The notes beneath the pieces were generated by a model. It ran no database searches, had not been told where the DNA came from, and worked only from the letters and a program-made list of their open reading frames with translations. Positions 859 through 46,525 of a stretch of DNA of 50,865 nucleotides are shown piece by piece. Within the stretch, counting starts at the first letter, position 1, and each line of letters opens with the position of its first letter. The DNA is from Escherichia phage vB_EcoS_swan01. The stretch lies in sequence record NC_048202.1. The stretch is one strand, 5' to 3'. The translations under genes were made by a program, and so were the position numbers.

Positions 859-889
859 GCACTTGGAAATGCTATTATCTGCATTGTCA

Positions 890-909
890 TTAGCAAAAAG
901 TGCTATTTA
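890..909 (-). promoter_or_regulatory. conserved phage motif copy, inverted relative to the downstream tail fiber gene
   Basis: TTAGCAAAAAGTGCTATTTA on + strand directly abutting the AGGAGG RBS of the tail fiber gene; no -10-like hexamer at the canonical spacing on either strand. Confidence 0.5.
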
Positions 910-5385: not shown

Positions 5386-6441
5386 TTATAGATACTGCCT
5401 GAATTGAGCGCGTACCCAATCAGGAGTATCAAGATCAATTTCCGGTTGCCCGTTTGCATACGAAGGCCATTCGTCTAACTGCTGGCAAACGTTGAACTTG
5501 TTGATCACGCTCATGTACTGGATTCGCCCGATCTTCAATTGCTCAATATTCATTCGGAAAGCAAGCGGCAAGTAAGGCTCTTTCTTCTCCTGCGCAAGCA
5601 ATCTTACAATTACTGGCCTTTCCTCGTCTGGATACGCCTTTTTGAATAAGTCATGTTGCAAAGCCATTTTAAGATAATAGCCGTGATTGTAAGCCAGGCG
5701 CTGGAAGTCAACCGGATTTGCGCTAACCGTTGTTTTGTAGTCAGTGATAATCACCGCTTCTGGATAGGTTACTTCTTCATAAATCGGCCTGCCTTTTTCG
5801 TCGTAACCGTTAATGATTGTTGCCTTTACATCCTTGTTTACGTCAACGTGATCAAGACGCACTTTTACTTTTACGCCGTTGATGATCCCAAATATTGACA
5901 TTTCACGCTGCGCGGTTGGGCTGTTCATGCAAGCGTTATGCTCCGGTATGGCCTCAAGTACGCGCCGCATCGCTACACAGGCATCATAATCTTTAGCGTC
6001 TATTAACTGCACTCCGTCCGCTGCGGCCTGGCATTCTGCCATCATTTCGATAAGCCACCACACATTGAGATCCTCGCCGCACTTGTACAGCATTTCCAGT
6101 AATTCAGGGTATTGTTTACCCGTTGTACCTTTCAGGCCAAAAGATTTCAGCTTTGATGCTAACGCCGTTTGACTAGTGATCAGGTCTTTAAAATCATCCT
6201 GCGACGGTGCGCGGCGATATGTTTTTTCGAATAGCTCCTTGCTTTCAAAGTTGGTATGCGACTGCGTACCGAAAACAAGTGCTTTAGTTTCCTGGCGCGG
6301 CTTGTACTTCCAGTACGCCGGGCAAGTGCTGTAAATCTCAGCTAGGCTGGAACCGCTGACATATTCAGCCGTCCACGCGTTAGGATCATGATAAAGCTCG
6401 TTGCTCATTTCTTCGCTAGTGTAGGCGTTAAAATCACTCAT
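5386..6441 (-). CDS. recombination exonuclease (PD-(D/E)XK-type)
   Basis: 351-aa ORF with D...DYK nuclease-like motif (VIITDYKTT); first gene of the leftward recombination operon. Confidence 0.55.
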   Translation of the reverse strand: MSDFNAYTSEEMSNELYHDPNAWTAEYVSGSSLAEIYSTCPAYWKYKPRQETKALVFGTQSHTNFESKELFEKTYRRAPSQDDFKDLITSQTALASKLKSFGLKGTTGKQYPELLEMLYKCGEDLNVWWLIEMMAECQAAADGVQLIDAKDYDACVAMRRVLEAIPEHNACMNSPTAQREMSIFGIINGVKVKVRLDHVDVNKDVKATIINGYDEKGRPIYEEVTYPEAVIITDYKTTVSANPVDFQRLAYNHGYYLKMALQHDLFKKAYPDEERPVIVRLLAQEKKEPYLPLAFRMNIEQLKIGRIQYMSVINKFNVCQQLDEWPSYANGQPEIDLDTPDWVRAQFRQYL

Positions 6442-6866: not shown

Positions 6867-6911
6867 AAATAGCACTTTTTGCTAAACGCGATGCCCAAGA
6901 TCGTGTATAGT
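6867..6911 (+). promoter_or_regulatory. motif promoter-like element (AAATAGCACTTTTTGCTAAA, ~21 nt spacer, TATAGT)
   Basis: conserved motif plus -10-like hexamer about 30 nt upstream of the lipoprotein gene ATG. Confidence 0.55.
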
Positions 6912-6942: not shown

Positions 6943-7212
6943 ATGAAAAAGTTAATCGCAGTTATCGCCACTGTAGCCGCTCTGACAGGATGCGCAGCGT
7001 CGCCTACTGGCAACTTCAAGGAGATCGATTGCACGGCAAAATTTAACGTTAAAACATTCCCTGTTAACGGATTCCATGAAGTCAAAATTAATGCAGTCCG
7101 CGAAAACAGATTCAGCCAAAAGCAATACAGGTTGAGCGTTGACAATAAAGAAGTTAAATTTATCAACCGTTGGCAAAATGAAAGTAAATTTATTGATTTG
7201 AGGTGTAATTAA
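6943..7212 (+). CDS. lipoprotein, candidate superinfection-exclusion protein (Cor/Llp-like)
   Basis: signal peptide with lipobox LTGC, about 89 aa, AAGGAG RBS. Confidence 0.55.
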   Translation: MKKLIAVIATVAALTGCAASPTGNFKEIDCTAKFNVKTFPVNGFHEVKINAVRENRFSQKQYRLSVDNKEVKFINRWQNESKFIDLRCN

Positions 7213-7490
7213 TGGCGCAATATGGTTATGCAATATATGACGATCGAGGAAGGGAAGTTACAGGACTTTTAACGCCTGTTTTCTTCCTTGATAAATTCAC
7301 TCAGCCATCAGGTAGCAAGACTTACCAAAACAGGCCGCCAGGTAAATCATTGAAAGCAATATATGTTGGCATGAATTCCTGGCGTGGTGGCGACCCTGGC
7401 GCACCAAACTTAGGGGTGAGTGGCGACACCGTTACATGGAGTGGGCTTTCTGGATCTGATTCAAGATATATATATACTTTTTGGGGGTGA
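7212..7490 (+). CDS. hypothetical protein
   Basis: ATG overlaps upstream stop (TAATG). Confidence 0.45.
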   Translation: MAQYGYAIYDDRGREVTGLLTPVFFLDKFTQPSGSKTYQNRPPGKSLKAIYVGMNSWRGGDPGAPNLGVSGDTVTWSGLSGSDSRYIYTFWG

Positions 7491-7492
7491 TA

Positions 7493-8107
7493 ATGTACGG
7501 GATGAGTATAAAAAAATCAGACGGATCGTTATGGTTAAGTCCAGATTTCACTCCAGTTAATCTAATTGATCGGGCTGTAATATCTGCTAATACCGGAACC
7601 GTTTTTACTTCGTCAATTCCTGTTGATAGGGTATGTTTTTTCTTTGTTAGATTGACCGCTAAATCATACATATCATTCACGCAATTTAACAATGGTGGAA
7701 GGCACGCAATAAGACTTGATAGATCTGATAATCAGGGTGAGGTTATTGTTTATGCTTTTAGTAATATGGTTACTCCACCAGGTAGTCACGGCATAGCGTT
7801 TTATAATGCTCATGGTGAAATGGTTTATCATGGAAAAATGAGGCCGCTAGATGCAAAGCAAGTAGGCGTAAGCGGGATCGCATTTGATGTTAACATGGGC
7901 TATCCTTGCGCCATAATGCCATCACTGACAGCATTAAACTCTGTTCCTAATCCGGCTTTAGGTGGATTCATGATTTTTGAGTCTCAAGCTGCCGCGTATG
8001 GTAACGGGATCTACTCTTTTTCTAGGCAGGTTGCACAAACTCCTGGACCTGTTGGTATTTACACCGCTTCATCTGTTTTGGTTATAAATGCATCACACTA
8101 TGATTAA
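7493..8107 (+). CDS. hypothetical protein
   Basis: 204-aa ORF, GGGGTGA RBS, ends at a bidirectional terminator. Confidence 0.5.
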   Translation: MYGMSIKKSDGSLWLSPDFTPVNLIDRAVISANTGTVFTSSIPVDRVCFFFVRLTAKSYISFTQFNNGGRHAIRLDRSDNQGEVIVYAFSNMVTPPGSHGIAFYNAHGEMVYHGKMRPLDAKQVGVSGIAFDVNMGYPCAIMPSLTALNSVPNPALGGFMIFESQAAAYGNGIYSFSRQVAQTPGPVGIYTASSVLVINASHYD

Positions 8108-8111
8108 AATT

Positions 8112-8138
8112 AAAGGGGGCTATGCCCCCTTTTTTTTT
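8112..8138. terminator. bidirectional rho-independent terminator
   Basis: gggggc-tat-gccccc hairpin flanked by A- and T-runs between convergent genes. Confidence 0.7.
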
Positions 8139-11100
8139 ACCAGCTTCCGGTAATCCTTCCGACTTCAACCCTCAATACTCCGTTTGCATCTTTTACCTTC
8201 AATCCCTCATTGGTGAATTTAGTAGCTCCTTCTCCTGGCGTTGATCCGTAATTCTCAAAGATTCCGTTTTTATCAAGCCTCCATCCTTGCTGGTTTTGAA
8301 CAAAGTTGTTTGACTGAATCACATTACCAATCATCGCATTAGTGATTGAACCGTTCTTCACCAAAAGACTATTAATGAAAACCTGATTATTCTCAACCAC
8401 GAAAGGCAAAGTAAAAGTCCCTCCAGTAGAGCTAGTCATAATGGCGAACCTGTTAGCATCAAACAAAATTTGCGAGATAAGGCCGGATGAACCCTGCGAA
8501 AGCTGCATCACCATTCCTGCGCTGTATTGCTGGCCTTTGTAAGTAAGGCCAAGTTTCATAGCGTATTTAGCGCCAACTGAATCAACGCTCGCCCAAGAAT
8601 CCAACTTTTCAACCAATGCAGATTCAACGTCGCCAAATCGTGCTGTTAATGCCTGGTCAGCCTGAACCCTTGCCTCTGTCTCATTGGCGATCGCCTGTTT
8701 CACTTCTGAGATGTTAGCCTCGACTTCTGTTTTGATAACTCCGTCAAGGTCGTTTATCTCTTTCGTGAACTTAGCGTCAAGCTGCTGAACGGCCTGAGCG
8801 CGCGCTTCTGACTCGTTAGTGATTGTCTGCCTTACATCGCTAATGCTTGCAGAAGTATCCTTGCGCACGCCGTCGATTTCTTTTGTGAATTTAGAATCAA
8901 GCTGCTGAATTTGAGTCGCTCGCGTCTCTGATTCAGTGGCAATTGCCTCCTGCACTGTCTTGATGCTTGATGTTATCTCGCCATCAATTGAAGCCCTTAA
9001 CTCTTCGATTTGAGTTACGCGCGCTTCTGTTTCATTGGCGATAAGCTCAAGAGCATGACCATATTCAGCCTTACGCTTTCCGTTTTGTACTCGCGTCCAC
9101 TTCACATCAGCATCGTTTGCCAATGCGTTCTGGATGATTGATTGCGCCTGGTCTTTGATTTTGTTGGCACTGTCTATGGCGTTCTCTTTGATTTCTTGAC
9201 CAGCTTCTGTATCAAAAATCTTGTCCAGAATGTCGCCCAAAACAGATTCAACGTCATCTGACGCCATGCCACGAACAAAGTCAGTCCAGCTTGAAACGTT
9301 GCCTATTCTGTCAACGCTGCGGATTCTATACCATACAACTTGCCCCGCTGGTAACGTGCTATGCCAATACTCATATTGAGGATATGGAATCAGCGTAAGC
9401 AAACTTGAGTTTTCCACCGTTCCGTCTGGCGATTGGTGAAGCTCAATGTAAGCCGTATCGCCTGATCCTTCCGGCATACCCCATTTGACACGAATGCCAA
9501 AAACTTCATTATCAGAAGCAGTAAGGTTTATCGGTGCTCCTGGCTCGCCAACTTTACCTGTCAGAGTAGCAGTAACAATCTTTGACCACGGGGAAGTGTT
9601 ACCGCTTGCAGAAACAGATCTCACCCTTACTTGGTAGTTGCCAGAATAAATTCCTTCTACCTCTATCTCTTTGTTAGCGGTCTGCGGCGTATTCAGCCAG
9701 TTACCATCACCTTTTCGCCACTGCATTTCATAAAGCGATGCGTAAGGAACCTTATCCCATGAAACAACCATAGTCTCAACGCTAACACCCTGCACGACGC
9801 GAGAATAAGATGAGATCTTAACGTTCTCAGGCGCTGCCATCACGTCAGGCTGAACAATTGAAGTAGGTCTGTCATCAATGTTTACTCCATAATCAATCTC
9901 GTCGTATTTGTTCGGATCGTACTCTACAGCCGTGATTGAATAGGTAAACTCGTTTTCGTCATCACCCTTGCTGATGGTTGTCACAACGTATTGCTGCAAC
10001 GCAAGATCAGTACGGTCAATCGCAAAAACAGTATCAGGCTTAACATCAAAACCAAATCCAATATTTAACTCAATGGTTTTTCCGTCTGCGCTAACCTTTG
10101 AGATCGTGCGCTTAACTGGCTTGCCGTCCGGCTTGTTGATGATAATAAAATCACCAGGGCGAGCATCAACCTTAAACGGAACGAAAACCTGCAGCCCTGA
10201 AACTTCCATTACTCGGCCCGATAGGTTTAACGTTAGGTTGCTACTCTGAAAATTATCAGCGATAGCAATAACATCACCTATTGATGGAATCATCCCCTCT
10301 AGTCCGGTAGCAAAGTTTACAGTAGTGCTTCTAAGGTTTGTTTTCAAAACCCAACGACCGCGACGATTCGCTTCGCTCCTGCGCGTGCACCCGATCGCTG
10401 TAATGCTTGTTGGGTTGTATCCAAATCGTAATGCCGCCTCAGTATCAAAAACCCCCTCTACGTCCTGCTGATACATGTTTTGTTCGTCGTCAAACGTCAC
10501 GTTACACTGCGTGTACATGCTTTTTTCGCTTGCGTTTGTGTACTGAAAATCACCGTTGATGACGTTTTCATTAGTAAACACGTATGATGGATCGCGCGGC
10601 TTATCAATCACGATTGATAAGCTCTCACCATTCCAAAAACTCATTCCGCGAAAGATTGAGCAAATGTCACGGATTAGCTGATAAGCCTCAACTTGATTCT
10701 GAATCACCACATCGCATAGGTAGCGAGGCTCAGTGCCGCCTTTACCGTCTGGAACTTTCTGATCGCAGTAAACGCCAGCCTCGTATAAGCTCCACTTGTC
10801 GATCTGTATTCCTAACTCTCGCTGATCAAGTCCATAACGCTGATTTGTCACCAGATCATAAAGAACCCAAGCAGGATTATTTGACCACGCTTTTTTAAAA
10901 GTCCCATCCCATGACCCGTGATATTCTCTTGATATTGGATCATAGTTGCTTGGCACATTAATAATCTTCCATTTCTTTTTTATAGAAATGTTAGGGATTT
11001 GCGTAGGAAACAATTCGCTGTCAAATTCTACGAATACAAGTCCAGTCAGAGGATAGCGGAATTTTGCATCAACAACCTCAGCGTAACTTTGCAGCTTGAT

Positions 11101-11715
11101 TTTATCAGTCACCTTTGAAGATGTGCTGTCTGGAGTCAGTCGCTTTACTCGGATTAAAACGCGCTCATCAAACTTAGGAAGATCAATCCTTCTGCTGCGG
11201 TCGTATCCTGATCTTGTCTTGCCGTCAATTACATCTCTCATAACCTCGCTATAAGAACCGCCATCAACAGCCATATCTACGGCATACTCAACCCTTACGC
11301 CAACAAGATCGCCGTTATCCTCTGTTTTAATGCCTACTGGCATCAGGATCTTTATTCTTACCGCAGATAGATTTTTATTTGTAACAGAAATAACATAAGG
11401 ATTGTCTCCGGTAATATCTCTGGCAACTGTAACCTCACTTGATGTGTCAGTAAAACCCTGGATGTAATCTTGCGTCTGCGTGCCTGGTCGATATTCAGCC
11501 GTAACTCCCTCGTAGTTAACAGTGCCATCGCTGGCAATAACCGGAACATCATCAAGATAAAGATCACGCAACGTAAAATCTGGATCGCACTCGCCATCAG
11601 ATACAGCCAGCAAAACTTTAATCTTGTTTATCGAGATCAGGTTATCTTCCATCTCTTTTGGCACGTAGGGCTTTTGACCGCCTCCCTTACTGCCGCTTAT
11701 CATATATTTAGCCAT
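8137..11715 (-). CDS. tail tip / host specificity protein (lambda J-like)
   Basis: about 1190 aa; N-terminus GSKGGGQKPYVPKEMEDNL resembles the lambda J N-terminus; last gene of the tail module. Confidence 0.75.
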   Translation of the reverse strand: MAKYMISGSKGGGQKPYVPKEMEDNLISINKIKVLLAVSDGECDPDFTLRDLYLDDVPVIASDGTVNYEGVTAEYRPGTQTQDYIQGFTDTSSEVTVARDITGDNPYVISVTNKNLSAVRIKILMPVGIKTEDNGDLVGVRVEYAVDMAVDGGSYSEVMRDVIDGKTRSGYDRSRRIDLPKFDERVLIRVKRLTPDSTSSKVTDKIKLQSYAEVVDAKFRYPLTGLVFVEFDSELFPTQIPNISIKKKWKIINVPSNYDPISREYHGSWDGTFKKAWSNNPAWVLYDLVTNQRYGLDQRELGIQIDKWSLYEAGVYCDQKVPDGKGGTEPRYLCDVVIQNQVEAYQLIRDICSIFRGMSFWNGESLSIVIDKPRDPSYVFTNENVINGDFQYTNASEKSMYTQCNVTFDDEQNMYQQDVEGVFDTEAALRFGYNPTSITAIGCTRRSEANRRGRWVLKTNLRSTTVNFATGLEGMIPSIGDVIAIADNFQSSNLTLNLSGRVMEVSGLQVFVPFKVDARPGDFIIINKPDGKPVKRTISKVSADGKTIELNIGFGFDVKPDTVFAIDRTDLALQQYVVTTISKGDDENEFTYSITAVEYDPNKYDEIDYGVNIDDRPTSIVQPDVMAAPENVKISSYSRVVQGVSVETMVVSWDKVPYASLYEMQWRKGDGNWLNTPQTANKEIEVEGIYSGNYQVRVRSVSASGNTSPWSKIVTATLTGKVGEPGAPINLTASDNEVFGIRVKWGMPEGSGDTAYIELHQSPDGTVENSSLLTLIPYPQYEYWHSTLPAGQVVWYRIRSVDRIGNVSSWTDFVRGMASDDVESVLGDILDKIFDTEAGQEIKENAIDSANKIKDQAQSIIQNALANDADVKWTRVQNGKRKAEYGHALELIANETEARVTQIEELRASIDGEITSSIKTVQEAIATESETRATQIQQLDSKFTKEIDGVRKDTSASISDVRQTITNESEARAQAVQQLDAKFTKEINDLDGVIKTEVEANISEVKQAIANETEARVQADQALTARFGDVESALVEKLDSWASVDSVGAKYAMKLGLTYKGQQYSAGMVMQLSQGSSGLISQILFDANRFAIMTSSTGGTFTLPFVVENNQVFINSLLVKNGSITNAMIGNVIQSNNFVQNQQGWRLDKNGIFENYGSTPGEGATKFTNEGLKVKDANGVLRVEVGRITGSW

Positions 11716-11762
11716 GACTTTTAACCTTTTGTGCTGTTTCTTGGTTTGCACATTATAAAGGC

Positions 11763-11797
11763 ACAAAAAAACCCGCGCAAGGCGGGTATTTTTTTAT
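11763..11797. terminator. hairpin with flanking A/T runs
   Basis: cccgc-gcaag-gcggg stem-loop between the I-like and J-like genes. Confidence 0.5.
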
Positions 11798-17646: not shown

Positions 17647-17692
17647 TTATAGCACTTTTTGTTAAAAGTGGAATTAATTTATTTGATAGATT
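17647..17692 (+). promoter_or_regulatory. motif copy inverted relative to the late genes (TATAGCACTTTTTGTTAAAA, 22 nt, TAGATT)
   Basis: conserved motif with a -10-like hexamer at canonical spacing, but pointing antisense to the tail genes; in gene sense the motif directly abuts the AAGGAG RBS of the G gene. Confidence 0.45.
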
Positions 17693-21400: not shown

Positions 21401-21445
21401 GATAGCACTTTTTGTTAAAGCGTCAAAGCGTTTTTATGTTATTCA
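21401..21445 (+). promoter_or_regulatory. motif copy inverted relative to the late genes (GATAGCACTTTTTGTTAAAG)
   Basis: conserved motif; a weak sigma70-like arrangement TTGTTA-N17-TATGTT points antisense into 21439..22452; in gene sense the motif precedes a hairpin and the capsid gene RBS. Confidence 0.4.
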
Positions 21446-35430: not shown

Positions 35431-35613
35431 TTACTTAATTCTAACTTCAACGTCAATATCTGCGTTAGGGGCGAATAGCTGCGCCTTGCCATTTACACGA
35501 ATTGTAAGAATGTTCTCTTTGCGGCAGTTATCCAGCACTAGGCGATATTTGCCAGCAAACTTAACCATCATTCCCGGCTTGACTTCTCTCATTTTGATGA
35601 TCTTATCCATCAT
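35431..35613 (-). CDS. hypothetical protein
   Basis: 60 aa, AAAGGGG RBS; preceded by a ~200-nt untranslated GC-rich leader. Confidence 0.45.
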   Translation of the reverse strand: MMDKIIKMREVKPGMMVKFAGKYRLVLDNCRKENILTIRVNGKAQLFAPNADIDVEVRIK

Positions 35614-35815
35614 TAACCCCTTTCACATAAATAACCGTTTAATCTTTGGTGACGGGCTTCACTTCGTCGGTAGCCTCAGTTCAGTGACCTATCTAGCGTT
35701 CTGCCTGGTGGCGAGTGTGATAGTTCTGGCCTCACGGTTGGGAATCCTGACACTTCGATCAAGCCCCTGCGTCGCTCCTCTCCCGCAGCAATCCTTGCCG
35801 CCCGTCTATGTGTGT
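35614..35815 (-). ncRNA. candidate structured 5' leader / noncoding RNA
   Basis: about 200 nt between a motif promoter and the next RBS with no credible ORF; GC-rich with long-range complementarity (GACGGGC...GCCCGUC). Confidence 0.3.
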
Positions 35816-35861
35816 ATTATGCCTGGTTATCGTTTTTGAGTTTTAACAAAAAGTGCTATTT
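35816..35861 (-). promoter_or_regulatory. motif promoter-like element (AAAATAGCACTTTTTGTTAAAA, 22 nt, CATAAT)
   Basis: motif overlaps the TAG stop of the lipoprotein gene; -10-like hexamer at canonical spacing. Confidence 0.6.
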
Positions 35862-36128
35862 TGTCTCGACGGTCATATGTTCTGTCTTCGTGCCTTTGCC
35901 ATTGCTTTTCGACACTTCCCAGCTAGTCGTGCCCTTACAGTTGGTGAAGTAAACAGTGCGATCGTCATAGAATCGGTAAACGGTGCAACCGTCAGCGGTG
36001 AATAGCTCCCTTACGCTGTAGTCATCGCCAGGGTTAGCCATCTGCACATTGCCAACATGCGCGCCATCTTCTTTGCATCCGGTCAGGAATGCCATTGCCG
36101 CCAAAACGCTGATTAATGCCTTTTTCAT
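35856..36128 (-). CDS. lipoprotein
   Basis: start at MKKALISVLAAMAFLTGC (signal peptide plus lipobox); ATGA overlap with the upstream gene. Confidence 0.55.
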   Translation of the reverse strand: MKKALISVLAAMAFLTGCKEDGAHVGNVQMANPGDDYSVRELFTADGCTVYRFYDDRTVYFTNCKGTTSWEVSKSNGKGTKTEHMTVETK

Positions 36129-36589
36129 TGCTCTTCCTCTTTGATGATTTCGCGGATCATATCCTGGTAGCGGCTTACGCCCTCGCAAGCCCCAGCCAGT
36201 TTATCCCCTTCCAGGTCCACGATGTTCGGGATTGCTGCCAGTATGCGATCGGCAAACTTTTTGATCGCCCTTGCCTTGATGGCTGGCAATTCTTCTGGTG
36301 TGATGATTTTCCTTTTCGATTCGCGGACCATGCGGAAAACGTAAAATTTATCATCTTCCGTTTCCTCTACCTTGATACTTACCCGACCTGCGGCCCTTAC
36401 TTCTGGAACGCGGTTGATAATGGTCCGGCTGTAGGATGAACTGCGCGTGATCTTGTAGCAGTCGTCACCGCTTAACATTCCGGCCAGGTCAATTAGTGAC
36501 ATTTTATACTCTTCAATATCGCCACTAGCCAGGCGGCGACCAAGCTCGCGAAGCCAATCGCAATAGTCCTTAGTGGTCTTCTGTTCCAT
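36125..36589 (-). CDS. hypothetical protein (first gene of a leftward operon)
   Basis: start at MEQKTTKDY with GGAGGAAAGGA RBS, about 30 nt downstream of a consensus sigma70 promoter. Confidence 0.55.
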   Translation of the reverse strand: MEQKTTKDYCDWLRELGRRLASGDIEEYKMSLIDLAGMLSGDDCYKITRSSSYSRTIINRVPEVRAAGRVSIKVEETEDDKFYVFRMVRESKRKIITPEELPAIKARAIKKFADRILAAIPNIVDLEGDKLAGACEGVSRYQDMIREIIKEEEQ

Positions 36590-36620: not shown

Positions 36621-36649
36621 ATTATAAAAGCTATTTGGTGCGTGTCAAT
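36621..36649 (-). promoter_or_regulatory. consensus sigma70 promoter (TTGACA-N17-TATAAT)
   Basis: perfect -35 and -10 hexamers with 17-bp spacer read on the minus strand, upstream of gene 36125..36589. Confidence 0.65.
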
Positions 36650-37201: not shown

Positions 37202-37247
37202 AAATAGCACTTTTTGTTAAAAATCAGGCCGCCTGATCGGGTACATT
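37202..37247 (+). promoter_or_regulatory. motif promoter-like element (AAATAGCACTTTTTGTTAAAA, 22 nt, TACATT)
   Basis: first promoter of the rightward small-gene block; leader CATCGAAACGAACC precedes the RBS. Confidence 0.6.
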
Positions 37248-38508: not shown

Positions 38509-38552
38509 ATAGCACTTTTTGTTAAAAACGATGCGCTGCTGATTGGTATAGT
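38507..38552 (+). promoter_or_regulatory. motif promoter-like element (AAATAGCACTTTTTGTTAAAA, 22 nt, TATAGT)
   Basis: motif starts inside the TAA stop of 38245..38508; -10-like hexamer inside an inverted repeat. Confidence 0.6.
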
Positions 38553-43570: not shown

Positions 43571-43598
43571 TAAAGGAGGCATTAAGCCTCCTTTTTCT
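43571..43598. terminator. bidirectional rho-independent terminator
   Basis: aggaggc-attaa-gcctcct hairpin plus T-run; overlaps the 3' end of the spanin gene. Confidence 0.6.
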
Positions 43599-43974
43599 TT
43601 TCTCTCCAGTAAAGACAAATCAGCACAATTAACACAACCACGCATATGATTACCGGATCGTACCATCTGCCGTTATTACCCTGCACGACATGAATTTTGT
43701 CTGCCTTGATGGTATTGGCCTGAATGGTTGATGTTGTGAAATCCTTCTTGCTGGACGTGTCCACCTTGTCAACCGCAGATTCCTTTATTGTGGTTTCCTG
43801 TTTTGTGCTGGCGTCCTGCTTTGCTGTAATGCCAACTGTCTGCTTCACGTTCTCCGCTCCAGCCTGTGCTGTGATTTCCGGCTTACTGCCGATTAATCCG
43901 GTCAGTGGCGTAACGCTTGAACATCCAGACAAGATCACCGCCATTGCGATTGGTGTAAGTAAAAAATTCTTCAT
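43582..43974 (-). CDS. unimolecular spanin (lipoprotein with C-terminal transmembrane anchor)
   Basis: N-terminal lipoprotein signal [18 protein letters not shown] and C-terminal TM helix VIICVVVLIVLICLYW, the architecture of T1 gp11-type u-spanins; immediately after the endolysin gene. Confidence 0.6.
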   Translation of the reverse strand: MKNFLLTPIAMAVILSGCSSVTPLTGLIGSKPEITAQAGAENVKQTVGITAKQDASTKQETTIKESAVDKVDTSSKKDFTTSTIQANTIKADKIHVVQGNNGRWYDPVIICVVVLIVLICLYWREKKKEA

Positions 43975-44465
43975 CATTTCAGATCCATTGTGCAATATTT
44001 GTATTCGACCTTGCGCCTGTTAAGTAATCCTTTAGACTTCTCGCGCTTTCCTGTTTTTGGGTTATGGTAATAAGTCCAACGATAAAGCTGATCGCAAGCC
44101 TCGTTTAATTTCCCCTGGTTGATGAGTTTCAGCATTGTTGAATTTCTGAAAGCCCCCACACCTGCATTGTAAGTGAATGAGTACATTGCTGCACGCATAC
44201 TATCAGGAATATCAACCTTAACTTTCTTGTCAACTTCCTTTTTAGCAACCTGGATATGCTTAGCCAACAAAGCATCACACTCTTTTTTAGTGTACGTTTT
44301 CCCCAGGATAACATCTGGTCCGGTGATTCCTGCGCAAACCGTCCATACTCCAGCAATATCTTTGTATGGCTTGTATCTTACCCCTTCGATCTCTTCAAGA
44401 AGTGGAGAAGTCAAGGCAACCGCAACGCCAAAGGCCGCAGCCGCTACCCTGTTCTTTATGCTCAT
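43974..44465 (-). CDS. SAR endolysin (GH24 lysozyme)
   Basis: N-terminal signal-anchor-release segment [17 protein letters not shown] followed by T4-lysozyme-like catalytic region ([22 protein letters not shown]). Confidence 0.8.
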
Positions 44466-46479: not shown

Positions 46480-46525
46480 ATTATGCCCGACAAAATGCCG
46501 GGCGTTTTAACAAAAAGTGCTATTA
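46480..46525 (-). promoter_or_regulatory. motif promoter-like element (AATAGCACTTTTTGTTAAAA, 22 nt, CATAAT)
   Basis: follows the stop of 46523..46780; inverted repeat in the spacer; conserved leader. Confidence 0.6.

What the first reader, a model, noticed from the sequence alone, without database searches (positions are those of the whole stretch)
6943..7212. Two small lipoproteins as candidate superinfection-exclusion factors
6943..7212 (lipobox LTGC) is driven by its own motif promoter and lies between the recombination and tail modules. 35856..36128 (lipobox LTGC) is the second gene of the leftward operon behind the consensus sigma70 promoter. Small phage lipoproteins at such positions often block the phage receptor, as Cor and Llp do. 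Two distinct ones would suggest two receptor or entry-blocking functions.
Basis: inference. Interest (0 to 1): 0.45.

Follow-up and report, generated by a model that had tools for sequence, protein, structure and literature searches.

The report
One receptor-blocker lipoprotein, one unknown lipoprotein
Both small lipoprotein genes are real: the one beside the tail-tip gene is a diverged relative of the known Cor/Llp receptor-blocking proteins and probably shuts the BtuB receptor, while the second is an unrelated early phage lipoprotein with no evidence that it blocks anything.

Summary
The window is a T1-like coliphage (Drexlerviridae, Warwickvirus), about 99% identical to published phages. 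Both ORFs, both LTG|C lipoboxes and both promoter statements check out.

ORF1 (6943..7212) is the first gene of the receptor-recognition cassette that converges on the J-like tail-tip gene. Its annotation-level match to "Cor" is largely a signal-peptide effect. Its mature domain nevertheless matches T5 Llp and a genuine Cor in profile comparisons, well above shuffles and unrelated lipoproteins, and it keeps their three-cysteine layout. Fold evidence is weak.

The cassette is 98.5-98.9% identical to that of BASEL phage FritzSarasin, whose terminal receptor is BtuB. Against a FhuA-using congener, only the mature lipoprotein domain plus the two downstream genes are replaced. ORF1 is therefore most likely a BtuB-directed superinfection-exclusion lipoprotein. 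This kind is known and was already predicted in the literature, but it is untested.

ORF2 (35856..36128) is a DUF4884 lipoprotein behind a perfect sigma-70 promoter. It is unrelated to Cor/Llp and lies far from any receptor-binding gene. Its mature domain is swapped between near-identical phages independently of receptor type. An exclusion role for it is pure speculation.

The parts
6869..6886 (+). Copy of the 18-nt phage motif (ATAGCACTTTTTGCTAAA), the presumed promoter element upstream of ORF1
   Evidence: 17 copies in the window versus 0.11 expected. The architecture is shown.
6906..6911 (+). -10-like hexamer TATAGT, 22 nt after the motif's TTGCTA
   Evidence: 13-14 of the 17 motif copies carry a -10-like hexamer at 22+/-1 nt (read by eye). 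Function is inferred.
6943..7212 (+). ORF1: 89-aa lipoprotein of the Cor/Llp superfamily, candidate BtuB blocker. Signal peptide 6943-6990; lipid-modified Cys codon 6991-6993.
7212..7490 (+). Cassette gene A (92 aa, phrog_557, annotated 'outer membrane protein'). Its start overlaps the ORF1 stop. Probable tail-tip or receptor-binding component.
7493..8107 (+). Cassette gene B (204 aa from the ATG used in relatives, phrog_425, annotated 'membrane associated protein'). Probable receptor-binding component.
8112..8132 (.). Bidirectional hairpin terminator between the cassette and the J gene
8137..11766 (-). J-like tail-tip gene, convergent with the cassette. It is 92% identical up to its stop codon in a FhuA-using congener.
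36621..36648 (-). Perfect consensus sigma-70 promoter TTGACA-16-TATAAT
36125..36589 (-). DUF7174 gene, first gene of the leftward unit
35856..36128 (-). ORF2: 90-aa DUF4884 lipoprotein. Lipid-modified Cys codon 36080-36078. The mature domain is hypervariable between related phages.
35842..35859 (-). Exact copy of the 18-nt motif overlapping the ORF2 stop codon. It starts the next transcription unit.

Best explanation
The two lipoproteins are different things.

ORF1 is a diverged member of the Cor/Llp superfamily of phage receptor-blocking lipoproteins. [quoted passage not shown] There, by analogy with Llp-FhuA and Rtp45-LptDE, it would bind the periplasmic face of the phage's own terminal receptor. 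That receptor is most probably BtuB. Binding would keep the receptor's outer loops from accepting the phage receptor-binding protein. The result would be exclusion of superinfecting phages that use the same receptor and protection of progeny from adsorbing to debris.

ORF1 is co-transcribed and translationally coupled with the two probable receptor-binding genes. Together they form one exchangeable module.

ORF2 is an unrelated DUF4884 lipoprotein, also predicted to go to the outer membrane. It is made immediately after infection from a consensus host-type promoter. Its target in the envelope is unknown and is not tied to the phage's terminal receptor.

Shown here: gene structure, family relations, module boundaries, and linkage or non-linkage to receptor type. 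Inferred: localisation, BtuB binding, and any exclusion phenotype.
For: Identity: the window is a Warwickvirus, about 99% identical to tonn, tunus and JLBYU01.

ORF1 family:
- It has 12 close and 25 distant representatives. The only invariant columns are Met1, lipobox Cys17, Cys30 and the C-terminal Cys88.
- T1 Cor (CTAIY...HDCSI), T5 Llp (KCEAYY...NTCEGVF, verified against PDB 8a60_B and 7qjf) and phiR2-01 g145 (FCTAY...GDCK) share this layout.

Profile tests on mature domains only:
- ORF1 family versus T5 Llp: score 21.4, E=4e-4. Shuffles with the Cys positions fixed give 9.5+/-1.8, maximum 15.4, and 0 of 200 reach the observed score.
- Versus PeterMerian Cor: 23.5, E=1.3e-4, aligned end to end.
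- Versus phiR2-01 g145: 17.1. Versus T1 Cor: 12.9.
- Negative controls (ORF2, u-spanin, Bor, Lpp, reversed Llp): 8-12.6.

Receptor:
- The cassette is 98.9/98.9/98.5% identical to FritzSarasin bas04_0025-23.
- BASEL S5 table lists FritzSarasin and KarlJaspers as BtuB and PeterMerian as FhuA.
- KarlJaspers has the same cassette layout (56/72/64% identity). PeterMerian has the T1 layout with a 75-aa Cor.
- Window versus PeterMerian DNA: J is homologous up to its stop codon. There is no similarity over 8134..6997. Similarity resumes at 6996, one codon after the lipobox Cys.
- JLBYU warwickviruses with this cassette do not depend on FhuA alone (PMC10373560).

Precedent:
- Rtp has the same layout, lipoprotein rtp45 > RBP rtp44 >|< J. 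Rtp45 is a structurally proven exclusion lipoprotein on LptDE (PMC12685063).
- BF23 has a BtuB-blocking lipoprotein (cited in PMC8624392).

ORF2:
- Pfam DUF4884 scores 31.8 bits against a cut-off of 30. There is no similarity to the ORF1 family, Cor or Llp.
- Homologues occur in BtuB, FhuA and LptD phages and in large lytic phages, among small early genes.
- FritzSarasin (BtuB) and PeterMerian (FhuA) share one ORF2 allele, while the window (BtuB cassette) has another at 45% identity.
Against: - There is no experiment on this protein or any close homologue.
- The database 'Cor' match is not trustworthy by itself. It disappears when the signal peptide is removed. The unrelated u-spanin also hits phrog_1119 at E=6.7e-5. 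NCBIfam's Cor model scores 19.2 bits against a cut-off of 31.
- The hhalign E-values are single-comparison values, with probabilities of only 10-54%.
- BtuB is inferred from a 98.9%-identical relative, not measured for this phage.
- Co-transcription with the probable RBP genes differs from T5, where llp and the RBP gene are divergently transcribed.
- For ORF2 the AlphaFold model is poor (pLDDT 58.7), so nothing can be said about its fold.
Confidence: 0.65

Rival explanations
1. One reading: both lipoproteins are exclusion factors, each blocking a different receptor or entry step. On this view ORF2 shuts a receptor used by competing phages, or blocks DNA entry in the periplasm.
For: ORF2 is a conserved lipoprotein predicted to reach the outer membrane. 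It is expressed from the only perfect sigma-70 promoter seen in the two regions scanned, which suggests very early expression. Its mature domain is replaced between phages that are 96% identical in the flank, with the breakpoint at codon 19. That pattern is expected for proteins in an arms race.
Against: There is no similarity to Cor, Llp or Rtp45-type proteins, and no adjacency to any receptor-binding gene. Its alleles are unlinked to terminal receptor type. Homologues sit among early genes of unrelated large lytic phages. The family has no functional data; the literature search found only annotation tables.
Confidence: 0.2
2. ORF2 is an early host-takeover factor acting on an envelope process, not an exclusion factor. 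Candidate processes are lipoprotein or LPS traffic, peptidoglycan turnover, an envelope-associated defence, or control of lysis timing.
For: Its position is among small early genes in several phage groups, next to different partners: DUF7174, DUF7352 or a Lar-like anti-restriction gene. Its distribution does not depend on receptor type.
Against: There is no homology to any characterised protein. The strong allelic turnover fits a variable target better than a conserved housekeeping target.
Confidence: 0.3
3. ORF1 is not a receptor blocker. Instead it is an accessory factor for making or assembling the two downstream tail-tip proteins, or a generic lipoprotein carried along in the cassette.
For: ORF1 is translationally coupled to gene A and shares one transcript with A and B. 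Fold evidence for Llp similarity is weak.
Against: A lipid-anchored periplasmic protein cannot chaperone cytoplasmic virion proteins that lack signal peptides (sequences). The same lipoprotein-first layout occurs in Rtp, where the lipoprotein is a proven exclusion factor. The mature-domain profile matches to Llp and Cor exceed all controls.
Confidence: 0.07

Closest known systems
T5 Llp (lytic conversion lipoprotein; PDB 8A60, 7QJF)
Cor of T1, phi80, N15, HK022 (PHROG 1119, NCBIfam NF047972)
   Same: It occupies the same genomic slot, between the J-like gene with its two small genes and recE. It has the same signal peptide: identical between KarlJaspers bas06_0026 and PeterMerian Cor, and homologous at the DNA level in the window. 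The PeterMerian Cor mature domain aligns end to end with the ORF1 family (score 23.5).
   Different: Cor is 75 aa and associated with FhuA, and it lies on the strand opposite the two small genes. ORF1 fails the NCBIfam cut-off, and its mature domain alone has no PHROG hit. The match to T1 Cor itself is marginal (12.9; 6 of 200 shuffles reach it).
BF23 and phiR2-01 receptor-blocking lipoproteins (BtuB-dependent T5-like phages)
   Same: The presumed target is the same (BtuB). Each is a lipoprotein next to the RBP gene. The mature domain begins with CTAY and has a Cys near the C-terminus. Foldseek on BFVD gives E=0.02 at 26% identity, and hhalign gives 17.1.
   Different: Only the N-terminal half aligns. 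Function has been shown only for BF23 (Mondigler 2006, cited), and the BF23 sequence was not compared here.
Rtp45 of phage Rtp (exclusion lipoprotein bound to LptDE, PDB 9RPS)
   Same: The operon layout is identical in another Drexlerviridae phage: lipoprotein gene first, overlapping the RBP gene, convergent on J. Periplasmic binding to the receptor has been demonstrated.
   Different: There is no detectable sequence similarity (hhalign 11.7, within noise) and the Cys pattern differs. The receptor is different (LptD).
Pfam DUF4884 (PF16225) / PHROG 6360, for ORF2
   Same: ORF2 passes the Pfam gathering score. Its core motif DGCTVYRFYDDRTVYF is conserved across the family.
   Different: The family has no known function. 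The window's allele lacks the second Cys pair (SCGKxC) present in many members.

Membership tests
Cor (NCBIfam NF047972 lamb_exclu_cor / PHROG 1119) | Score above the curated family cut-off | tested here: not met
   NCBIfam gives 19.2 bits against a cut-off of 31. The PHROG hit (E=8.4e-8) vanishes without the signal peptide. The unrelated u-spanin hits the same PHROG at E=6.7e-5.
Cor (NCBIfam NF047972 lamb_exclu_cor / PHROG 1119) | Encoded beside the J-like tail-tip gene and the phrog_557/phrog_425 gene pair | tested here: met
   The gene pair is inverted relative to T1.
Cor (NCBIfam NF047972 lamb_exclu_cor / PHROG 1119) | Association with FhuA-dependent phages | tested here: not met
   A 98.9%-identical cassette in FritzSarasin goes with BtuB. 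JLBYU relatives are not dependent on FhuA alone.
Cor/Llp superfamily (receptor-blocking lipoproteins) | Lipoprotein signal with lipobox and an outer-membrane sorting residue at +2 | tested here: met
   LTG|C-A. The Cys is invariant in 27 family members and +2 is never Asp. Actual localisation was not tested.
Cor/Llp superfamily (receptor-blocking lipoproteins) | Conserved Cys pair near the N- and C-termini of the mature domain, with C-[TE]-A-x-[YF] | tested here: met
   C30 and C88 are invariant. The same layout occurs in T1 Cor, PeterMerian Cor, T5 Llp and phiR2-01 g145. A disulfide bond is inferred.
Cor/Llp superfamily (receptor-blocking lipoproteins) | Mature-domain sequence similarity beyond chance | tested here: met
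   hhalign gives 21.4 against Llp (0 of 200 Cys-fixed shuffles reach it) and 23.5 against PeterMerian Cor. Negative controls score 8-12.6.
Cor/Llp superfamily (receptor-blocking lipoproteins) | Llp-like fold | tested here: inconclusive
Cor/Llp superfamily (receptor-blocking lipoproteins) | Binds the periplasmic face of the cognate receptor and abolishes adsorption | not testable with these tools
   This needs plating assays and co-purification or a complex structure.
Cor/Llp superfamily, applied to ORF2 | Sequence relation, adjacency to an RBP gene, co-variation with receptor | tested here: not met
   hhalign E>=0.3. ORF2 lies about 28 kb from the cassette. Its alleles are unlinked to receptor type.
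Pfam DUF4884 (ORF2) | Score at or above the gathering threshold | tested here: met
   31.8 bits against 30, over residues 35-64 only. 18 of the 19 homologues found carry PF16225.

The most novel reading that the evidence does not exclude
ORF2 and its DUF4884 relatives could be a second, receptor-independent class of phage periplasmic effector lipoproteins. On this reading each allele's mature domain would target a different envelope protein, for example receptors of competing phages. In both lipoprotein genes the conserved signal-peptide and lipobox segment would serve as the recombination joint that lets mature domains be exchanged as plug-in modules.
Probability: 0.15. Interest if true: 0.6.

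Novelty: new member of a known kind. Interest (0 to 1): 0.3.

Why it matters
ORF1 would extend the Cor/Llp type of receptor shut-off to BtuB in T1-like phages. It would also give a sequence bridge between Llp and Cor, which are barely comparable to each other directly. The practical uses are modest: predicting receptor use and cross-exclusion when phages are combined in cocktails, and engineering BtuB-phage-resistant production strains. The general principle is already established for FhuA, for LptD and, in T5-like phages, for BtuB, and this particular protein has already been flagged computationally. ORF2 matters only as a pointer to a widespread, fast-changing early lipoprotein family that nobody has studied.

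Tried and rejected
- I did not accept the PHROG 'Cor' hit at face value. The mature-only sequence has no hit, and the u-spanin hits the same family through its signal peptide.
- Sequence searches of PDB with the ORF1 profile, T1 Cor and the ORF2 profile gave only chance matches.
- Foldseek of the ORF1 model against PDB gave nothing significant.
- The ORF2 AlphaFold model was too poor (pLDDT 58.7) to justify a fold search.
- PADLOC gave no hits. NCBIfam gave nothing above cut-off. Rfam found nothing in the window.
- T1 itself has no ORF2 homologue.
- Rtp45 shows no similarity to ORF1.
- A tblastn with the distant family member P0047, meant to find T5-like carriers, returned only T1-like phages.
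- The standard sigma-70 scan found no + strand promoter upstream of ORF1. A search with the -10-proximal sequence found no repeats. The repeated motif turned out to lie further upstream.
- The idea that ORF2 tracks the terminal receptor was tested and rejected.

Full report
**What the window is.** The DNA around both sites is 98-99.6% identical to published coliphages such as tonn, tunus, JLBYU01 and SECphi27. These are classified as Drexlerviridae, Tempevirinae, Warwickvirus, that is, T1-like siphophages of about 51 kb. In those records both genes are annotated 'hypothetical protein', or for ORF2 'DUF4884 domain-containing protein'.

**The observation.**
- ORF1 runs from ATG 6943 to TAA 7212. 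It encodes 89 aa beginning MKKLIAVIATVAALTG|C, with AAGGAG 8 nt upstream.
- ORF2 runs from ATG 36128 to TAG 35856 on the minus strand. It encodes 90 aa beginning MKKALISVLAAMAFLTG|C. Its ATG overlaps the TGA of the preceding gene.
- A rule-based scan of every ORF in six frames finds only three credible lipoprotein genes: these two and the u-spanin at 43582..43977.
- In both families the lipobox cysteine is invariant and the +2 residue is never aspartate. By the established E. coli sorting rule this predicts transfer to the outer membrane. That is an inference.
- ORF1 lies between a RecE-like exonuclease gene (5386..6441, minus) and the J-like tail-tip gene (8137..11766, minus).
ATAGCACTTTTTGTTAAA occurs 17 times with at most three mismatches, against 0.11 expected. 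One copy sits at 6869-6886. In 13-14 copies a -10-like hexamer follows at 22+/-1 nt, here TATAGT at 6906-6911.
- A 22-nt gap does not fit an ordinary -35/-10 promoter, and the standard scan finds none on this strand. Promoter function and its timing are therefore not shown.
- ORF2 is indeed the second gene behind a perfect TTGACA-16-TATAAT at 36648..36621.

**ORF1: is it Cor?** PHROGs gives 'Cor superinfection exclusion protein' at E=8.4e-8 over the full length. This does not stand by itself.
- With the signal peptide removed there is no hit at all.
- BLASTP against T1 Cor aligns only residues 1-34.
- The unrelated u-spanin of this phage hits the same PHROG at E=6.7e-5.
- NCBIfam's Cor model scores 19.2 bits against a cut-off of 31.
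- ORF1 is therefore not a member of the Cor family as curated.

**ORF1: relation at a deeper level.**
- The family is small. It has 12 close homologues on roughly 50-kb contigs, and 25 representatives in a 1.8-billion-protein library.
- Across 27 sequences down to 23% identity, the only invariant positions are Met1, the lipobox Cys, a Cys 13 residues later, and a Cys at the C-terminus.
- T1 Cor, the Cor of PeterMerian, T5 Llp (sequence verified against PDB 8a60_B and 7qjf) and the annotated receptor-blocking protein of Yersinia phage phiR2-01 have the same layout. The second Cys lies in C-[TE]-A-x-[YF].
- Profile comparison restricted to mature domains gives these scores:

| Comparison with the ORF1 family | hhalign score | Notes |
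|---|---|---|
| T5 Llp | 21.4 | E=4e-4; Cys-fixed shuffles average 9.5+/-1.8, maximum 15.4; 0 of 200 reach it |
| PeterMerian Cor | 23.5 | E=1.3e-4; aligned end to end |
| phiR2-01 protein | 17.1 | |
| T1 Cor | 12.9 | 6 of 200 shuffles reach it |
| ORF2, u-spanin, Bor, Lpp, reversed Llp | 8-12.6 | negative controls |

- Cor and Llp compared directly give only E=0.02. The ORF1 family therefore acts as a bridge between them.
- Against viral models, Foldseek finds lipoproteins of Providencia and Proteus phages (E about 1e-5 to 1e-4) and the phiR2-01 protein (E=0.02).
- I conclude that ORF1 belongs to a Cor/Llp superfamily. This rests on sequence pattern and context, not on fold.

**ORF1: context and the receptor.**
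- ORF1 is followed by gene A (7212..7490, whose start overlaps the ORF1 stop) and gene B (7493..8107). A bidirectional terminator follows at 8112-8132, facing the end of J.
- The three proteins are 98.9, 98.9 and 98.5% identical to bas04_0025-0023 of BASEL phage FritzSarasin. Its terminal receptor was determined as BtuB (S5 table of PMC8594841).
- KarlJaspers, of another genus and also BtuB-dependent, has the same layout at 56/72/64% identity.
- PeterMerian is a Warwickvirus that uses FhuA. It has the T1 layout instead (J > A > B > < cor) with a 75-aa Cor that is 56% identical to T1 Cor.
- At the DNA level the window and PeterMerian are homologous through the whole J gene to its stop codon (92%). 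They share nothing over 8134..6997. Similarity resumes at 6996, one codon after the lipobox cysteine, and continues through the promoter region and recE.
- What changes with the receptor is therefore exactly the mature lipoprotein domain plus genes A and B.
- The authors who isolated JLBYU01, 07, 10, 16, 19 and 26 note that these warwickviruses do not use FhuA as sole receptor (PMC10373560).

**ORF1: precedents.**
- Phage Rtp has the same operon design: lipoprotein rtp45 overlapping RBP gene rtp44, convergent on J. Rtp45 has been shown by cryo-EM to bind LptDE at the periplasmic side and to prevent RBP binding (PMC12685063).
- Llp does the same to FhuA (cited in the same paper).
- BF23 carries a BtuB-blocking lipoprotein next to its RBP gene (Mondigler 2006, cited in PMC8624392).
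- A 2026 paper picked up a Cor-like protein in the BtuB-using Tempevirinae with an HMM (PMC13164509).

ORF1 is thus a new member of a known kind that has already been predicted and never tested.

**ORF2.**
- It passes Pfam DUF4884 narrowly (31.8 bits against 30, residues 35-64) and matches PHROG 6360 of unknown function.
- The conserved core is LFTxDGCTVYRFYDDRTVYFTxC.
- It has no detectable relation to the ORF1 family, Cor or Llp (E>=0.3), and no match in PDB, NCBIfam or PADLOC. Its structure prediction is unreliable (pLDDT 58.7).
- Homologues occur in 117 phage records. They include Drexlerviridae that use BtuB (FritzSarasin, KarlJaspers), FhuA (PeterMerian) and LptD (Rtp gene rtp3), as well as Serratia, Pantoea, Pseudomonas and Xanthomonas phages. 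T1 has none.
- In three metagenomic contexts the gene sits within runs of small co-directional early-type genes of large lytic phages, with different neighbours each time.
- The window and FritzSarasin are 96.4% identical down to position 36072, which is codon 19 of ORF2. They then share no nucleotide similarity across the mature domain, where amino-acid identity is 45%.
- Against PeterMerian, only a 68-nt island covering the signal peptide is conserved, and it ends at the same coordinate.
- FritzSarasin (BtuB) and PeterMerian (FhuA) carry the same ORF2 allele. The window, which has FritzSarasin's BtuB cassette, carries a different one. A third allele occurs in BEBK14.
- ORF2 is therefore a rapidly exchanged early lipoprotein whose variation is independent of the terminal receptor.
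- This excludes a role as the cognate receptor blocker. It does not say what ORF2 does. Exclusion of other phages or interference with an envelope process remain guesses.

**Verdict.** The sequence observation is correct. It is unsupported for ORF2. Nothing here is outside known biology. The mildly new points are these:
- the sequence bridge between Llp and Cor;
- the exact module boundaries at the lipobox in both genes;
- the receptor-independent hypervariability of the DUF4884 lipoprotein.

Noticed in passing
window, 17 sites, e.g. 6869-6886(+), 35842-35859(-), 37204-37221(+), 38509-38526(+), 46506-46523(-): The 18-nt motif ATAGCACTTTTTGTTAAA is followed at a fixed 22+/-1 nt by a -10-like hexamer. 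A different short inverted repeat usually lies in or around that spacer and -10 region. The spacing does not fit a normal sigma-70 -35/-10 pair, which suggests dependence on a phage factor or an unusual promoter class.
   Followed up: partly
window 17649-17666(+), 21402-21419(+), 889-906(-): Two motif copies lie on the + strand in a region that, judging from the minus-strand J gene and the layout of T1 and FritzSarasin, holds minus-strand structural genes, so they would point antisense. The 17649 copy follows the reverse complement of a ribosome-binding site and is followed by a terminator-like hairpin. The copy at 889-906 is also followed directly by a terminator-like hairpin, not by a gene start. 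The gene map of these sites was not checked.
   Followed up: no
window 7212..7490 and 7493..8107: [quoted passage not shown] Homologues (44% identity for gene B) sit directly after the tail fibre gene of Stx-converting phages, with no lipoprotein beside them. The pair is inverted relative to J between FhuA-type and BtuB-type cassettes. They look like tail-tip or receptor-binding proteins that have been misnamed.
   Followed up: partly
window 8137..11766(-) versus PeterMerian: The J-like protein gene stays 92% identical up to its stop codon between a BtuB-cassette phage and a FhuA-using phage. The C-terminus of J is therefore unlikely to set terminal receptor specificity in this genus.
   Followed up: partly
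window 6991-6996 and 36072-36080: In both lipoprotein genes, homology with relatives carrying a different allele stops within one or two codons of the lipobox cysteine. The signal-peptide coding segment behaves as a conserved joint for exchanging mature domains.
   Followed up: partly
window 43582..43977(-): The third lipoprotein is the u-spanin (phrog_1804, E=1e-46). It also hits the Cor PHROG at E=6.7e-5 through its signal peptide. This is a warning for automated 'Cor' annotations.
   Followed up: yes
window 35614..35855: About 240 nt with no convincing ORF lie between the motif after ORF2 and the next gene (35431..35613). FritzSarasin has two 186-nt genes at the corresponding place. This could be a long leader, a small unannotated gene or an RNA. 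Rfam finds nothing.
   Followed up: no
P0015 (metagenomic homologue of ORF2, 46-kb contig): It is close to ORF2 over about the first 40 residues and then diverges completely. This looks like a frameshifted or disrupted copy.
   Followed up: no
phage records MG065636-MG065681: Records labelled 'Campylobacter phage' (about 50 kb) carry homologues of both lipoproteins and of gene B typical of T1-like coliphages. The host label looks doubtful.
   Followed up: no
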